39,922 nucleotides of DNA, taken from UHGV virus genome UHGV-1470964. One strand, given 5' to 3'. Made by a program: the position numbers. Source of the stretch: a virus. The first letter of the stretch is position 1, and every line of letters starts with the position of its first letter. Positions 1 to 7,850 of this stretch are shown one piece after another.

Positions 1-3000
1 GTGCTATCTGCGCCCATATCATCCAGTGGTCATAGCAGTCGTTGAAGTCCTCTGCTTCGATAACCCTGTTGAATGGTTCTCCATTCCATTCACCTGTGAC
101 TCGAAAGTGCATTTATCATCTCCATAAAGCAAAACTCGCCGTAGCGAGTTCAGATAAAAGAAATCCCCGCGAGTGCGAGGATTGTTATTCATTGCCGATA
201 TTCACCTTTATCGCGAACACCTTTACCGGTTTATCGCCGAAGTGCGGATGTGTGATTGTCTTGATTTCATATCCGTCATACGGAACATCAATTCTGCGGC
301 TGGAATCGTCGCGCTTCGGATATCCCTTTGTGATAATCAGGCGGTCATACTCCCTGAACATAATTCGCTTATTCCAGTAGTCATTACACAGGCGATACTC
401 TTCCGTTTTCTCTCCGCGAATGATGGCATCGAAGTATTCACCTTTGACGGCAAGTTGCAGGTTAGCCATGGTTAACCTCCTGCTCAATATTTTTAAGGTC
501 ATTTTCCGCATACAGTATTGCAGTCCTTGCTGCTCGCAACCGTGCTTTGGTGTTCTTTTCTTCGCGCTCAAGGTTGGCTACAGACTCGCGCAACTCATCA
601 CGGCGACGATGGAGTTGCTCAATCTCAGTGACGATATGCTCACCATCAGTAGCTACCTGCAGGATGTGCTCGAAGGGGTCAATAACGCAGCCGCACTTTG
701 TGCAACGAACAACGCGATCAGTTTCACAAACCTCGATAGCCCGATGCTTACAGCTATGTTGTATGTAGTTTTTTCTGTCAGTTACAGTGATGTTCAGCAG
801 TTTCTCTTCATTGCGCTTTGGCTGCACCAGAGAGATGACGTTGTCGCTTTCATTTTCCATTACTTCGCCTCCAGCGGAGGTTCTGGTAGCGGCATCCAGT
901 GAGTTGCTTGCTCAATACCATTACCCGGCTTAATCGTTGCATCTCCGCGCCGAAAGGTGCTTCCGGTATAGCGTGCGGAGCATATTAGCGGTCAACCAGA
1001 GAGCTATCGAAATTCACCGAAATAAGCACGTTCTGGCCCTTTTCAGGCATTCGCTCACTACAGCTTATCCAACCATCCGGAGTTACCGGAGAGTTGCCAC
1101 CCTGAACAGTAGGCATATCCGGACCTTTGCGAATCGCCCTGGCAAGATCGATTGGGTCGTCGTATAACCAGTCACCTGTTTGCGGATGATTGGCCTCTGC
1201 CAGTTGCGCCGCCCATTCAAGGCCGTCTTTGTGACCTTGCAGATAGTCCAACGGCAACTCATCACGATTACTTACGGGTTCGATTTGTTCGGAATTACCG
1301 GACAACTGCATGGTACCTTCATTGGTGAGGGTACCATCGGACTGAAGCATGGCGGCGCGGCAGGCGTTCACATCACCGTAAATCGGACCGATTAGATTAA
1401 ATCCTTTCATGGGGCAGCCAGCAGGAGAATAAGCAACTGCGCCATCATCGGACACGAATAAAAAGCCAACTGGTTTCAAATCAGGAACAGATACCGGCGC
1501 TGACGGGGCGGTGTAAAGCGGCTTAATTTGCAAGGCTGTATCCGCTTTGTACGCAATCGCCTGTGTCATGTTTTCCAGAAGTTGCGTGCCAACCATATAC
1601 GCCACAGGCTCTGCTTCGAGCGATGCCAGTGCTATACGCGCATTATTAATCAGGAGGCTATCAGCAGGAGATAAAACAACATGAGCGTTACCCTCAGCAT
1701 CAATTTCAGAATTCGTAATTTTTCTGAACAGCTTTGCCAGTTCTTTGGTAATAGTGCTCATGGGCGAATCTCCGTCCTGCCACCAAGTAAGCGGATTGCC
1801 ACTCGTTCCCGGAAGGTAAGCGGTCGATGGTGTCCGCGGGCATTAACAATTTCAGGCTTTCCATTAGGCGGATAATTGACCCTGACCGATTGACCATCTA
1901 GCGCGTGAGAAGCCTCGAGTAGTGCTGACTTTAAGTGCGCAGGGCACTCTTTCTGCACCCGCTCGCCGTCTGAAATGACACCTGCAATCCCCTGAAGCAT
2001 GCTGGCTAAATTGCTGAGATAATTTTTCACATTCACTCTCCTTTACCGGTGCCATAGGCAGATAAGCACTCTTCAAATCCAGCCTGATTATCCGTTTGAC
2101 CTAAACTGAAGCCATGCTGAAGACCATGACGAAATGCGCTATCTTGCAATTTATCTGCGCTATCGAGCTTCGCTTCCAGTTCAGCGATTCGCTTCTCTGC
2201 GGTTTCCAGTTCAGAAAGCAGCTCCGCTGAGCGCAGAGCCAATTTCGCAAGCATGTTTGTATCCTTCAAGCTCATCAGCCAATGCCCAGGATTGCTTTTG
2301 CAATACTCCATATCAGCTAATTTATTGAGCCATTCAATTTTTTCTTGATTTAACGCCTGTTTGTCGATGTTGCTCATTGGGCGGTTCCTTCGTAACCGAT
2401 GGCTTCTGCAATTTCAGCAAGTGTCTCTGCACTTTCACCCACTGGCTCATTCATCCAGTCGAAGGAAACAAGCTTACCGCCTTCGATAACGCCGATGTTG
2501 AAATCATCACTACCTTGTGTTTTCAGACCATGCTTGATTGCCTTATCGCGCTTATCGAAGTCAACGCCGTCTGTCGTGTATTCAACTCCATGGCCTTTCT
2601 CGTTGCACCACCAGTACTGCTGAATAACGATGTATGATTTTCTCATGACTGCACTCCTTTGCGAATTTGGTAGGCATGGACGCGCATTATGTCGATTGCC
2701 TTCGATGTGACAGGATGCTGATGGTTCATCATCGCAATGACTGTGTTAATCGCTGAATCCACACCCTGCGCACGCACTTCAGCCAGAAAAGCATCGGTGG
2801 CTGGGGTTTCTGGAATGGCGTCTGGAATAACCTCTGAGTAGACGCGTTCCATTGCCGACTCCCATCCGTAGTAACAAGCCGAATAGCCGTCGCGCTGGTA
2901 GCCGTGGTCTTCAACTCCACATCCCATGCCATGGTCATGGTATTCAGGCTGATTGTCGGGATTAATGCAGTATTCAATGACCGACTTCATCCCCGCATTC

Positions 3001-6000: not shown

Positions 6001-7850
6001 TCGAGATTACTTTGTCGCAACAATCCCTCTTCTACGCGGTCAGCTTTTCTATAATTATCAAATTCGAAATGTTTAATTACTTCTTTCGTTTCTCGCTCTA
6101 TAACTTCAACAATGTATTTCTTATTCATCATTCTTCCCCCAGGGCCTTGCTGATGGCTGCCTTGGCTCGTTTGTATTCGGTTAACTCTCTGCACCCTTCG
6201 TCATGCTCGTAAAGGAAGACAAGCTCTTGCAGTGCTTCAAGCAAATCAGGAGCTGCTGCTATCAGTAGCGCATCCTCCCTTTCATTTCTTGTTGCTGCTT
6301 CAATGTATGTGTCACCAATCGTCACACCATGGAACGTAGTCATCATCTCGTTGACGTTTCTAACCGTGTACTTCCATTTACCAGGCGTACCCTTAAACTC
6401 TTTCATATCCACCTCTGTTGTTTATGCCAAAAGAAGGCCGACTATGCGGCATAATTATTTTTAACTATCATCAATACATGGCACTTTATTCCAGTCGATA
6501 TCGTTTTTATTGTCGTCCCACATGTCTTTGTTTTTGTATTTCTCGCTACATCCTAGGCAAATGTTGTATGGCCTACCGATAAGGTTTAACGAAATACGTT
6601 GCATTTCATTTGATTCAAACATGTATCCACAGAACTGACATTTATGCATATCTCACCCCTCATACAGTAGCTTACTGCCTAATTTCATTTTCTGGCGACC
6701 AACACAAGTCACCCCCATTTCACTGCGTGGCTTGCTGTACCATGTGCGCTGATTCTTGCGCTCAATACGTTGCAGGTTGCTTTCAATCTGTTCGTGGTAT
6801 TCAGCCAGCACCGTAAGGTCTATCGGATTCAGTGCGCTTTCTACTCGTGATTTCGGTTTGCGATTCAGCGAGAGAATAGGGCGGTTAACTGGTTTTGCGC
6901 TTACCCCAACCAACAGGGGATTTGCTGCTTTCCATTGAGCCTGTTTCTCTGCGCGACGTTCGCGGCGGCGTGTTTGTGCATCCATCTGGATTCTCCTGTC
7001 AGTTAGCTTTGGTGGTGTGGTGGCTGGTAGTCTAGCTCCAGCTTGTTGAGTCTCATTCGGAGGGGTATAACCGGCACCCCAGCGATTTTTCCATGCGACA
7101 ACGTGCGCGTTATGGCGGCCTTATCGCCCGCGGCTCCCCATCTCGTCCACGCTATTGCTAGCGTTGGGAGCGCTTCACCGCTCAACAGTAGGTAAGCACT
7201 TGCCAGTGACTAGCTGGCTTCACCACACCCCAAAGCCTTCTGCTTTGAATGCTGCCCTTCTTCAGGGCTTAATTTTTAAGAGCATCACCTTCATGGTGGT
7301 TAGTGCGTCCTGCTGATGGCTTAAAATTACAAGAAAGATTGTATGTTGTAAACAAGAAATATTGTAAAAATGGGCGTGAAAAACAAACTCCATTGTTTTT
7401 AAACGGAAAATAGTTTGTTTTTTGGTTGTCGAAATTGAGGTGAGGATTACTGGTTGCAGGTTCCGACTACATCACCAACAAAGGATTTGGTTGATGTAAG
7501 TTGTTGCATACCTGGGATGTTCATTACTTTGGAGTAAAGAGCTTTTTTGTCTGTAGTGATTGACCAGGTTTCAACGGTTATTCCTCCTCCAGACTGGTAT
7601 TCTCCTACCATAGTGTTCGATGACAAAGCAGTGTATTTCATCTCTGGATAGACGCCAGAAACTGATTCATAAACTGATGATTTATCGCCATTTATTGTTA
7701 CGTGGAAAACGGAATCTTCCGTGCTGTCTTTTGTAAACTCGTAACGATCGCCATTCATTGCCCCGTACCCGTGCAGGTTTGTGACAATCCAGCATTCAGA
7801 ATTGGCGCTGGTAGTTAAGAGTATTGAGAGTAGCGCCGCAATCCTGATCA

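What the first reader, a model, noticed from the sequence alone, without database searches (positions are those of the whole stretch)
985..6649. Run of about 15 translationally coupled small ORFs of unknown function downstream of N
Most adjacent pairs share ATGA or 4-nt overlaps, which argues they are real genes. Early-left regions of lambdoid phages often encode host-takeover, anti-restriction or anti-defence proteins. None of these is recognisable to me beyond DUF551-like and zinc-finger motifs.
Basis: partly seen in the sequence, partly recalled or inferred. Interest (0 to 1): 0.4.

Follow-up and report, generated by a model that had tools for sequence, protein, structure and literature searches.

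The report
Ordinary lambdoid phage early-left operon
The ORF run is real, but it is the standard leftward early operon of a lambda-like prophage: a known four-gene recombination module flanked by conserved accessory genes, a few of which still have no known function.

Summary
The ORF run exists on the minus strand directly downstream of N (6653-6985) and nutL. It holds 16 ORFs between 6649 and 985. Seven of the 16 junctions are ATGA/GTGA 4-nt overlaps and six more have 0-13 nt spacing. Every ORF matches a phage protein family (PHROG), and parts of the region occur in 583 phage records and 3310 of 5426 E. coli genomes. "Unknown function" is wrong for the core. Positions 3381-5361 are the Sf6-type recombination module: Rad52-type annealing protein, SSB, HNH endonuclease and Abc2 anti-RecBCD, 98-99% identical to Sf6 genes 26-28. 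A cIII-like gene, DUF2737, two Ea22/EaD/EaE-like genes and an EaA/DUF551 gene are also recognisable. The left border at 985 is an artefact of a private 1-nt deletion that truncates the DUF551 gene, and the operon continues to the window start. Unknown function remains for a narrow-family zinc ribbon (orf62), a P22-orf78/Y8K6 family member (orf92), orf53, orf90, orf92b, DUF2737 and the overlapping pair 5370-5619. Two of these gave confident predicted structures with no solved structural relative. No record holds 80% of this exact combination, as expected for a mosaic; nothing here is new in kind.

The parts
7254..7284 (-). nutL: boxA-like TGCTCTTA followed by lambda-type boxB GCCCTGAAGAAGGGC, upstream of N. 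434-type OL half-sites lie at 7329-7365.
   Evidence: Read directly from the sequence and located by motif search. The boxB hairpin also appears in the terminator scan.
6653..6985 (-). Antiterminator N, 110 aa. It is the upstream anchor of the run, outside the finding's coordinates.
   Evidence: Pfam N36 PF11438, E=1.7e-26. 100% identical to mEp213 gp51 and 93% to lambda N.
6461..6649 (-). orf62: 62-aa four-cysteine zinc ribbon with an acidic C-terminus; function unknown. It starts 3 nt after the N stop codon.
   Evidence: phrog_19863 (unknown function), E=5.6e-47. Only 8 clusters in 5.8 billion proteins. C4, C7, C31 and C34 are invariant. It lies next to an N-type gene in three other contexts. 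No Pfam, NCBIfam, PADLOC or PDB match.
6128..6406 (-). orf92: 92-aa member of the Phage_P22_Y8K6 (PF27050) / 'XkdD/Y8K6' family, with the motif ANAxLIAAAPELLEAL; function unknown.
   Evidence: phrog_1273, E=7.9e-24. 43% identical to P22 orf78. Close homologues carry PF27050. NCBI name taken from a 98%-identical protein. 533 representative clusters at 50% identity. AF2 pLDDT 94.6, three strands plus three helices. No solved structural relative.
5970..6131 (-). orf53: 53-aa protein of unknown function. Its ATG overlaps the orf92 stop codon (ATGA).
   Evidence: phrog_6949, E=3.4e-40. 100% identical to mEp213 gp48. The genes in this slot in other phages are unrelated to it.
5819..5876 (-). Two terminator-like hairpins in the 183-nt gap between orf53 and the cIII-like gene. 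This is the tL position and is presumably read through by N-modified polymerase.
   Evidence: Terminator scan. Two terminators are annotated in phage HK75 just upstream of its cIII, the equivalent position. Function is inferred.
5616..5786 (-). cIII-like protein, 56 aa, HK542 gp32 type.
   Evidence: phrog_550 'CIII', E=1e-22. 100% identical to HK542 gp32. Only 28% identical to lambda CIII (E=0.025). Pfam Lambda_CIII gave no hit.
5449..5619 (-). o5619: 56-aa ORF (Sf6 gene 30 / HK97 gp42.1 type) in the kil slot. Its last 92 nt overlap the next gene in another frame. Coding status is uncertain.
   Evidence: phrog_2123, E=7e-40. Its ATG overlaps the stop codon of whichever gene lies upstream, in two mosaic contexts. 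One phage (phiKp_30) has an in-frame 15-nt deletion. Length varies from 47 to 56 aa. No similarity to P22 Kil.
5370..5540 (-). o5540: 56-aa protein (Sf6 gene 29 / HK97 gp42 type) always found directly upstream of the annealing-protein gene. It is a positional analogue of P22 Arf.
   Evidence: phrog_1723, E=3.6e-33. Strong RBS: AAGGAG, 7 nt, then ATG. Constant 56 aa across two sequence types. A 31%-identical homologue sits in the same slot in L002. It lies upstream of both Rad52-type and Erf-type SAP genes. No similarity to P22 Arf.
4654..5361 (-). Single-strand annealing protein (SAP), Rad52/22 type, 235 aa.
   Evidence: PF04098, E=5e-26. phrog_1097, E=9e-130. 98.7% identical to Sf6 gp28. The C-terminal 79 aa are 63% identical to the P22 Erf C-terminus.
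4180..4653 (-). Phage SSB, 157 aa, with the acidic C-terminal tip DDSDIPF.
   Evidence: PF00436, E=1.1e-38. 97% identical to Sf6 gp27. Tail read from the translation.
3691..4170 (-). HNH-type endonuclease, 159 aa, with an N-terminal zinc-ribbon region. It is a presence/absence polymorphism between ssb and abc2.
   Evidence: phrog_2340 'endonuclease', E=5e-47. N-terminus matches phrog_5558 (Lar-like) at 3e-8. 99.4% identical to Sf6 gp26. Absent in L002. No Pfam or PDB sequence hit.
3381..3677 (-). Abc2 anti-RecBCD protein, 98 aa.
   Evidence: PF11043, E=2e-36, full length. 62% identical to P22 Abc2.
3206..3370 (-). DUF2737 protein, 54 aa (P22 orf56 / HK97 gp38 type); function unknown.
   Evidence: PF10930, E=9.5e-29. 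72% identical to P22 orf56.
2643..3209 (-). Ea22a: 188-aa coiled-coil protein related to P22 EaE. Its homologues are named 'ead/Ea22-like' by NCBI.
   Evidence: phrog_614, E=4e-53. tblastn hit to the P22 eaE region, 32% identity. Homologue names.
2374..2646 (-). orf90: 90-aa protein with invariant SDDFN, W64 and M65; function unknown. Labelled 'antitoxin' in many NCBI records, with no evidence for that found here.
2033..2377 (-). Ea22b: 114-aa coiled-coil protein related to the P22 EaD C-terminus ('ead/Ea22-like').
   Evidence: phrog_1138, E=5e-20. 60% identical to the P22 eaD C-terminal region.
1758..2036 (-). orf92b: 92-aa protein of unknown function with a GTG start overlapping the Ea22b stop codon.
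   Evidence: phrog_14964, E=7e-63. 99% identical ORFs in L001, L002 and mEp213. No Pfam or PDB hit.
861..1761 (-). EaA-like/DUF551 gene disrupted by a 1-nt deletion near 991. The called ORF is 985-1761 (258 aa). The rest of the DUF551 domain lies at 863-991 in another frame and would end at a TAA overlapping the orf132 ATG.
   Evidence: PF04448 matches profile positions 1-22 of 68 only. Alignment to the intact E. coli gene. None of 612 E. coli genomes carrying this 76-bp segment has the deletion. 26% identical to P22 EaA.
462..860 (-). orf132: 132-aa zinc-ribbon plus coiled-coil protein of unknown function. It continues the operon beyond the finding's left border.
   Evidence: phrog_1621, E=1e-52. 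The weak LmuB hit (E=1e-3) covers the coiled coil only.
185..469 (-). ASCH-domain protein, 94 aa.
   Evidence: 99% identical to WP_000002087 'ASCH domain-containing protein'. phrog_625, E=6e-51.

Best explanation
The run is the delayed-early part of the leftward (PL) operon of a lambdoid prophage with 434-type immunity, a lambda-type N/nutL and a SEN34-like myovirus late region. Transcription starts at PL, is modified by N at nutL, and reads through the two hairpin terminators at 5819-5876. This is inferred from lambda and P22 biology. The genes are translated from one polycistronic mRNA, and stop/start overlaps or very short spacers couple most neighbours.

The content is mosaic and falls into four blocks:
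1. An N-proximal accessory slot (orf62, orf92, orf53), identical to phage mEp213 gp50-48. This is where lambda and P22 carry ral, ea10, orf78/orf87 and gene 17.
2. A cIII-like gene and two small overlapping ORFs in the kil/arf slot.
3. A four-gene recombination module of the Sf6 type: Rad52-type annealing protein, SSB, HNH nuclease and the RecBCD modifier Abc2. It supplies phage-directed recombination and neutralises host RecBCD.
4. An 'ea' block equivalent to the P22 ea genes and the lambda exo-xis region: DUF2737, two Ea22/EaD/EaE-like coiled-coil proteins, orf90, orf92b and a frameshifted EaA/DUF551 gene. It continues through orf132 and ASCH towards xis/int beyond the window.

The gene families and their order are shown by the tool results. 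The regulation and the roles of the unknown ORFs are inferred.
For: - Position and orientation relative to cI, the OL half-sites, nutL and N.
- Tight junctions.
- Family assignments from Pfam and PHROGs.
- Near-identity of blocks to sequenced phages: mEp213 gp48-51 at 100% aa, HK542 gp31-32 at 96-100%, Sf6 genes 26-30 at 80-99% with abc2 (gene 25) at 62%.
- Same gene order as the P22 PL operon, with orf78, orf56, EaA, EaD and EaE homologues.
- 583 phage records and 3310 of 5426 E. coli genomes match parts, and none covers 80% or more, which is the expected mosaic pattern.
- In E. coli NZ_LR536431 the homologous operon ends at xis and int.
- The SAP + SSB + nuclease + anti-RecBCD combination is a described lambdoid Rec-module type (PMC12315714).
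- Terminator-like hairpins sit at the position of annotated terminators in HK75.
Against: - Nothing contradicts the operon reading.
- The cIII assignment rests on a PHROG hit only. Pfam gave no hit, and identity to lambda CIII is 28% at E=0.025.
- HNH catalytic status is inferred from the PHROG match and the visible HH...H motif, not from a Pfam or PDB match.
- The 5449-5619 ORF may not be a gene.
- N-dependent read-through and translational coupling were not, and could not be, tested here.
- Seven to nine ORFs still have no function, so 'ordinary' describes the architecture and not every protein.
Confidence: 0.9

Rival explanations
1. The run is chiefly a battery of uncharacterised host-takeover, anti-restriction or anti-defence genes, and at least one unknown ORF (orf62, orf92, orf53, orf90, orf92b, DUF2737, o5540) inhibits a host defence system.
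For: - The N-proximal slot holds ral, gene 17 and sieB in lambda and P22.
- The operon does carry one proven anti-defence family, Abc2.
- orf62 is always adjacent to an N-type gene in four contexts.
- Y8K6-family genes recur in this slot in P22, mEp213 and two E. coli prophages.
- orf92 and orf90 have confident predicted folds without solved relatives, and are small and acidic-tailed, as many inhibitors are.
Against: - No unknown ORF hit any restriction-alleviation, anti-defence or defence model.
- The conserved residues of orf92 are mostly hydrophobic core positions.
- A third of the region is a recombination module, not takeover genes.
- Lambda exo-xis and Ea22 genes have been linked to the lysis-lysogeny decision rather than to defence (PMC7093339, PMC10834534).
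- The argument from position is the only evidence.
Confidence: 0.25
2. The region is a decaying, non-functional remnant of a defective prophage, and the ORFs are on their way to becoming pseudogenes.
For: A private 1-nt deletion truncates the DUF551 gene. The window was not shown to be an inducible phage.
Against: - All other ORFs are intact and full length relative to their families and to cultivated phages.
- Start/stop overlaps and RBSs are preserved.
- The rest of the window has a full late region.
- The single deletion could equally be a sequencing error.
Confidence: 0.1
3. orf90 is the antitoxin of a toxin-antitoxin pair embedded in the operon, as its NCBI label suggests.
For: Many database entries for homologues that are 60-99% identical are named 'antitoxin'.
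Against: - No Pfam, NCBIfam, PADLOC or PDB match to any antitoxin family.
- Fold searches give nothing significant. T4 Dmd appears only at E=2.5 and TM 0.25.
- The neighbours differ between contexts and none is a toxin family.
- The current RefSeq annotation of the 99%-identical protein is 'hypothetical protein'.
Confidence: 0.05
4. The ORFs are chance open frames and not genes.
For: None, beyond the weak status of 5449-5619.
Against: Every ORF matches a phage protein family at E values of 5e-20 or lower and is conserved at the protein level in divergent phages.
Confidence: 0.01

Closest known systems
Shigella phage Sf6 early-left operon, genes 25-30 (NC_005344)
   Same: Same order and near-identical proteins: small overlapping ORFs 29/30, Rad52-type annealing protein gp28 (98.7%), SSB gp27 (97%), HNH endonuclease gp26 (99.4%), abc2 gp25, then DUF2737.
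   Different: - The Abc2 allele is only 62% identical; it is 98% identical to an E. coli O125ac prophage allele.
- Sf6 has lambda-type kil and cIII plus gene 33 upstream, where the window has a cIII-like HK542-type gene and the mEp213 trio.
- Sf6 gene 24 is absent between abc2 and DUF2737.
- The ea genes differ.
Phage mEp213 gp48-gp51 (NC_019720)
   Same: N plus the three N-proximal ORFs (orf62, orf92, orf53) are 100% identical in protein and 99.9% in DNA. All three are annotated hypothetical.
   Different: mEp213 continues with a second, HK620-type N gene, gene-33-like, cIII and kil genes and an Erf-type annealing protein without SSB or HNH.
Salmonella phage P22 PL operon (24, ral, orf78, orf87, 17, c3, kil, arf, erf, abc1, abc2, orf56, ea genes)
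   Same: Same overall architecture, with homologues of orf78 (orf92, 43%), abc2 (62%), orf56 (DUF2737, 72%), EaE, EaD and EaA. The SAP C-terminal domain is 63% identical to that of Erf.
   Different: - No ral, gene 17, abc1 or sieB here.
- The annealing domain is Rad52-type rather than Erf-type.
- SSB and HNH are added.
- The small ORFs in the kil/arf slots show no sequence similarity to P22 Kil or Arf.
Lambdoid Rec modules as classified by Zheng, Casjens et al. 2025 (PMC12315714)
   Same: [quoted passage not shown] HNH nuclease is accepted as a module member when tightly packed.
   Different: Most Rec-module phages lack Chi, whereas this window has 8 + 3 Chi sites, all more than 13 kb from the module. 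This is the paper's 'rare exceptional' class.
Lambda exo-xis region / Ea22
   Same: Same position, between the Rec module and xis/int. Early-expressed small ORFs and coiled-coil 'Ea22-like' proteins, which reports link to lysis-lysogeny behaviour.
   Different: No detectable similarity to lambda Ea22, orf60a, orf61, orf63 or ea8.5 by tblastn at E<=0.01. The relatives are the P22 Ea proteins.

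Membership tests
Lambdoid N-dependent early-left (PL) operon | Lies directly downstream of an N antiterminator gene and a nutL site (boxA, boxB), and is transcribed away from the repressor gene. | tested here: met
   N: PF11438, E=1.7e-26. boxB GCCCTGAAGAAGGGC at 7254-7268 and boxA-like sequence at 7277-7284. The 434-type cI gene is at 7848-8480.
Lambdoid N-dependent early-left (PL) operon | Canonical gene order: cIII/kil, then recombination genes, then ea/accessory genes, then xis-int. | tested here: met
   Order shown. xis and int lie outside the window but follow the homologous genes in NZ_LR536431.
Lambdoid N-dependent early-left (PL) operon | Transcription from PL with N-dependent read-through of internal terminators. 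| not testable with these tools
   Only terminator-like hairpins at 5819-5876, at the position of annotated terminators in HK75.
Lambdoid Rec module (SAP + SSB + nuclease + anti-RecBCD) | A single-strand annealing protein of the Rad52/Erf/RecT superfamily. | tested here: met
   PF04098, E=5e-26. phrog_1097, E=9e-130.
Lambdoid Rec module (SAP + SSB + nuclease + anti-RecBCD) | An SSB with an OB fold and an acidic C-terminal tip. | tested here: met
   PF00436, E=1.1e-38. C-terminus ...NFDDSDIPF.
Lambdoid Rec module (SAP + SSB + nuclease + anti-RecBCD) | A nuclease contiguous with the other module genes. | tested here: inconclusive
   phrog_2340 'endonuclease', E=5e-47, and 99% identity to Sf6 gp26. 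The spacers on either side are 9 and 13 nt. There is no Pfam HNH or PDB hit, and the gene is dispensable in a related prophage.
Lambdoid Rec module (SAP + SSB + nuclease + anti-RecBCD) | An anti-RecBCD protein (Gam, GamL, Abc2 or MuGam). | tested here: met
   Abc2, PF11043, E=2e-36 over the full profile.
CIII (FtsH-inhibiting lysogeny factor) | Sequence membership in the Lambda_CIII family, including the central amphipathic helix. | tested here: inconclusive
   phrog_550, E=1e-22, but no Pfam hit. Identity to lambda CIII is only 28% at E=0.025, with a 12-residue gap in the helix region.
DUF551 (PF04448) | A complete 68-position domain in one reading frame. | tested here: not met
   Only profile positions 1-22 are in frame. 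The rest is at 863-991 in another frame because of a 1-nt deletion.
Phage_P22_Y8K6 (PF27050) / XkdD-Y8K6 family (orf92) | Sequence membership. | tested here: met
   Homologues 99% identical carry PF27050. A 98%-identical protein is named XkdD/Y8K6. 43% identical to P22 orf78 at E about 1e-9. The local Pfam copy lacks this model.
ead/Ea22-like proteins | Detectable homology to lambda Ea22 or P22 EaD. | tested here: inconclusive
   Ea22b is 60% identical to the P22 EaD C-terminus and Ea22a is 32% identical to P22 EaE. No hit to lambda Ea22 and no NCBIfam hit. The name comes from the NCBI annotation of homologues.
Toxin-antitoxin antitoxin (label on orf90) | A known antitoxin fold or family, plus a conserved adjacent toxin gene. 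| tested here: not met
   No family, PDB or fold match. The neighbours vary and none is a toxin family.
Known restriction-alleviation / anti-defence families (Ral, Lar and others) for the unknown ORFs | Profile or sequence similarity. | tested here: not met
   No hits for orf62, orf92, orf53, orf90, orf92b, o5540 or o5619. Only the HNH N-terminus touches a Lar-like PHROG, at 3e-8. Dedicated anti-defence HMM sets were not available.
P22 Arf / Kil (for o5540 / o5619) | Sequence similarity to P22 Arf or Kil. | tested here: not met
   BLASTP finds no alignment at E<=100. Only the gene position is shared.

The most novel reading that the evidence does not exclude
At least one conserved unknown is an uncharacterised early-expressed inhibitor of a host defence or housekeeping protein, with a fold that has no solved relative. 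The best candidates are the N-adjacent zinc ribbon orf62, the Y8K6-family protein orf92, and orf90 with its invariant SDDFN motif. The N-proximal slot, bounded by N and the two terminators, would then be a swappable anti-defence cassette. It could be tested directly in the cultivable phage mEp213, which carries the identical genes.
Probability: 0.25. Interest if true: 0.45.

Novelty: already known. Interest (0 to 1): 0.15.

Why it matters
The region gives a clean, fully mapped example of a lambdoid early-left operon, and it corrects the impression that this is 5.7 kb of dark matter. The truly unassigned part shrinks to seven to nine small genes, about 1.5-2 kb. Three of them (orf62, orf92, orf53) are identical to genes of the cultivable phage mEp213, so they can be tested by simple deletion. 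The Y8K6 family is large, with 533 clusters at 50% identity. It has a confident predicted fold, no solved relative and no known function, so it is a reasonable target for a systematic anti-defence or interaction screen. Nothing here changes current understanding.

Tried and rejected
- NCBIfam and PADLOC scans of all unknown ORFs gave nothing. The only exception was a coiled-coil artefact hit of orf132 to LmuB.
- The Rfam scan of the whole window gave no RNA family.
- PDB sequence searches gave nothing significant. Single sequences were tried for orf92, orf62, orf90, orf92b and HNH, and profiles for orf92 and orf90.
- I considered a conserved two-gene module of a Y8K6 protein plus a downstream partner. 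This was rejected: the partners in P22, two E. coli prophages and the window are mutually unrelated.
- I considered o5540 and o5619 as Arf and Kil homologues. There is no sequence similarity.
- I tried to decide by substitution patterns whether the overlapping ORF 5449-5619 is coding. There were too few independent variants in eight sequences, so this is inconclusive.
- I considered the 124-bp 'gap' at 861-984 as a regulatory region or operon end. This was rejected: it is the out-of-frame remainder of the DUF551 gene.
- I considered programmed frameshifting there. This was rejected because all 612 E. coli genomes with this segment have the in-frame version.
- Literature searches for DUF2737, PF27050 and XkdD/Y8K6 returned no functional study.

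Full report
**Observation**

The minus strand carries an unbroken chain of ORFs running leftwards from N (6653-6985). I refined the start codons using ribosome-binding sites and the limits of family matches. That gives 16 ORFs between 6649 and 985.

Of the 16 junctions, counting N/orf62:
- Seven are 4-nt ATGA or GTGA overlaps.
- Six have spacers of 0-13 nt.
- One is a 92-nt out-of-frame overlap.
- Two are true gaps, of 54 nt and 183 nt.

The 183-nt gap (5787-5969) holds two terminator-like hairpins at 5859-5876 and 5819-5838. Phage HK75 has two annotated terminators at the equivalent position, just upstream of its cIII. It overstates the ATGA share (44%), and the ORFs are not uniformly small: the range is 53-258 aa.

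**Are they genes?**

Yes. Every ORF matches a PHROG family with an E-value between 5e-20 and 9e-130. Megablast finds parts of the region in 583 phage records and in 3310 of 5426 complete E. coli genomes. No record covers 80% of it, which is the usual lambdoid mosaic picture.

**Context**

- Upstream of N lie the lambda boxB sequence GCCCTGAAGAAGGGC (7254-7268), a boxA-like TGCTCTTA, and 434-type operator half-sites.
- The repressor at 7848-8480 is 434-like by my reading of its sequence. This rests on my own knowledge and was not tested with a tool.
- The late region of the window resembles SEN34-type myoviruses.
- In E. coli NZ_LR536431 the homologous operon ends in xis and int.

The run is thus the N-dependent early-left operon of a lambdoid prophage.

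**Block 1, N-proximal slot (5970-6649)**

orf62, orf92 and orf53 are 100% identical in protein to mEp213 gp50, gp49 and gp48. Those genes also follow a lambda-type N.

orf62:
- It is a four-cysteine zinc ribbon, with C4, C7, C31 and C34 invariant.
- Its family is very narrow, with 8 clusters among 5.8 billion proteins.
- It sits next to an N-type gene in every context examined, including two metagenomic contigs with other immunity regions.

orf92:
- It belongs to PF27050, Phage_P22_Y8K6. NCBI names the family 'XkdD/Y8K6 family phage-associated protein'.
- It is 43% identical to P22 orf78, which lies in the same slot between ral and gene 17.
- The family has 533 representatives at 50% clustering.
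- Its conserved positions are largely hydrophobic: the GTPGxW and ANAxLIAAAPELLEAL motifs.
- AlphaFold2 gives a confident model (pLDDT 94.6) with three strands followed by three helices. No solved structure matches it.

The gene downstream of the Y8K6 member differs in every phage compared, so there is no conserved pair.

**Block 2 (5370-5786)**

The 56-aa ORF at 5616-5786 hits the PHROG annotated as CIII (E=1e-22) and equals HK542 gp32. It is only distantly similar to lambda CIII (28%, E=0.025) and misses the Pfam model. I call it cIII-like.

Two 56-aa ORFs follow, at 5449-5619 and 5370-5540, overlapping by 92 nt in different frames. Both are annotated in Sf6 (genes 30 and 29), HK97 and mEp213. 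The PHROG label 'recombinase' on them is unsupported.

The downstream ORF, o5540, is well supported:
- It has an AAGGAG ribosome-binding site.
- It keeps a constant length across two sequence types.
- A 31%-identical homologue occupies the same slot elsewhere.
- It always lies immediately upstream of the annealing-protein gene, whether that gene is Rad52-type or Erf-type.

It is therefore a positional analogue of P22 Arf, though without sequence similarity to it. A role as a Rec-module accessory is inferred only.

The upstream ORF, o5619, is uncertain. Its start overlaps the preceding stop codon in two mosaic contexts, and one phage has an in-frame deletion. But its tail varies in length (47-56 aa), and there are too few variants for a selection test.

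**Block 3, recombination module (3381-5361)**

- Rad52/22-type annealing protein: PF04098, E=5e-26.
- SSB: PF00436, E=1e-38, ending in DDSDIPF.
- HNH-type endonuclease: phrog_2340, E=5e-47.
- Abc2 anti-RecBCD: PF11043, E=2e-36.

The first three proteins are 97-99% identical to Sf6 gp28, gp27 and gp26, in the same order.

This four-function combination is one of the Rec-module types catalogued for 246 lambdoid phages. In that catalogue, tightly packed HNH genes are accepted as module members with a caution about their mobility (PMC12315714). P22 Abc2 binds RecC and blocks Chi activation (PMC12315714; see also PMC9836394).

The caution about HNH mobility applies here. In NZ_LR536431 the HNH gene is absent, and ssb reads through into the last 14 HNH codons. 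The SAP C-terminal 79 residues are 63% identical to the P22 Erf C-terminus, although the annealing domains differ. This fits domain shuffling.

**Block 4, 'ea' genes (985-3370 and beyond)**

- DUF2737: PF10930, equivalent to P22 orf56.
- Two coiled-coil proteins related to P22 EaE and EaD. NCBI names their homologues 'ead/Ea22-like'.
- orf90 and orf92b.
- An EaA-like protein ending in DUF551.

No similarity to lambda Ea22 itself was detected. Lambda exo-xis genes, and Ea22 in particular, have been linked to the lysis-lysogeny decision (PMC7093339, PMC10834534).

orf90:
- It has 104 clusters, with invariant SDDFN, W64 and M65.
- It is labelled 'antitoxin' in many records. I found no antitoxin family, no fold match and no conserved toxin neighbour.
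- Current RefSeq calls the 99%-identical protein hypothetical.

**The left border**

The Pfam DUF551 match stops at profile position 22 of 68. Alignment with an intact E. coli gene shows a single-base deletion, GTTGAACCG to GTTGACCG, near 991. The rest of the domain is encoded at 863-991 in another frame. It would end at a TAA that overlaps the ATG of orf132 at 860.

None of the 612 E. coli genomes carrying this 76-bp segment has the deletion. It is either a private mutation or a sequencing error. The finding's end at 985 and the apparent 124-bp gap are artefacts of it. The operon continues through orf132, the ASCH gene and a gene cut by the window start.

**Verdict**

The architecture, the regulation signals and most of the proteins are known. 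Each block is 92-100% identical to sequenced, annotated phages, apart from the more divergent Ea22-like genes. The interpretation as an early-left operon is correct, but the claim that nothing is recognisable is not.

The anti-defence hypothesis survives only for seven to nine small unknown genes, and it rests on position alone. No unknown ORF matched any defence, anti-defence or toxin model that I could run.

I rate the finding as already known and of low interest. There is a modest residual chance that orf62, orf92 or orf90 is an uncharacterised inhibitor.

Noticed in passing
window 18926-37845 (Chi sites) against the Rec module at 3381-5361: There are eleven Chi sequences (GCTGGTGG): 8 on the + strand and 3 on the - strand. 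All lie in the late region, and none lies in 1-18925. Chance expectation is about 0.6 per strand. A phage with a full Rec module including Abc2 plus many Chi sites, and a Chi-free zone around the module, matches the 'rare, exceptional' class in Fig. 7 of PMC12315714. The authors interpret that class as recent acquisition of a Rec module by a Chi-rich phage.
   Followed up: partly
window 7447-7851, minus strand: A 134-aa ORF starts with an ATGA overlap on the cI stop codon. It has a signal-peptide-like N-terminus ([20 protein letters not shown]...) and matches phrog_2651 (unknown function). It sits in the slot where lambda has rexAB, so it is probably expressed in the lysogen and is a candidate moron or exclusion gene.
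   Followed up: partly
window 3691-4170, compared with L002 5463-5978 (E. coli NZ_LR536431): The HNH gene is a presence/absence polymorphism. In the related prophage it is missing, and the ssb ORF continues past DDDIPF into the last 14 codons of the HNH gene. That gives a 171-aa SSB whose conserved C-terminal tip is no longer terminal.
   Followed up: partly
window 985-995: A single-base deletion (AA to A) frameshifts the EaA/DUF551 gene. It is absent from all 612 complete E. coli genomes that carry this segment, so it is a private mutation or a sequencing error.
   Followed up: yes
window 5449-5540: Two conserved ORFs overlap by 92 nt in different frames (Sf6 genes 29 and 30; HK97 gp42 and gp42.1). 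Both have their own PHROG family and both are labelled 'recombinase' without evidence. The upstream ORF varies in length between phages and may not be a gene.
   Followed up: partly
window 4654-4890 (SAP C-terminus): The C-terminal 79 residues of the Rad52-type annealing protein are 63% identical to the C-terminus of P22 Erf, although the N-terminal annealing domains belong to different families. This looks like a shuffled partner-interaction domain.
   Followed up: no
L004 (phage mEp213) 6359-8116: mEp213 carries two N-type genes: lambda-type gp51 and HK620-type gp47. The orf62/orf92/orf53 trio lies between them, which suggests the trio arrived together with the lambda-type N as one recombined segment.
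   Followed up: no
protein P0124 (homologue of orf62): One orf62 homologue is fused at its C-terminus to the last ~25 residues of the Sf6 gene-33-like coiled-coil protein. This looks like a recombination scar between neighbouring early-left genes.
   Followed up: no
window 462-860, minus strand: orf132 (phrog_1621) combines a Cys-rich zinc-ribbon-like segment with a long coiled coil. It lies between the DUF551 and ASCH genes, where the related E. coli prophage has no gene. Its weak PADLOC hit to LmuB covers only the coiled coil.
   Followed up: no
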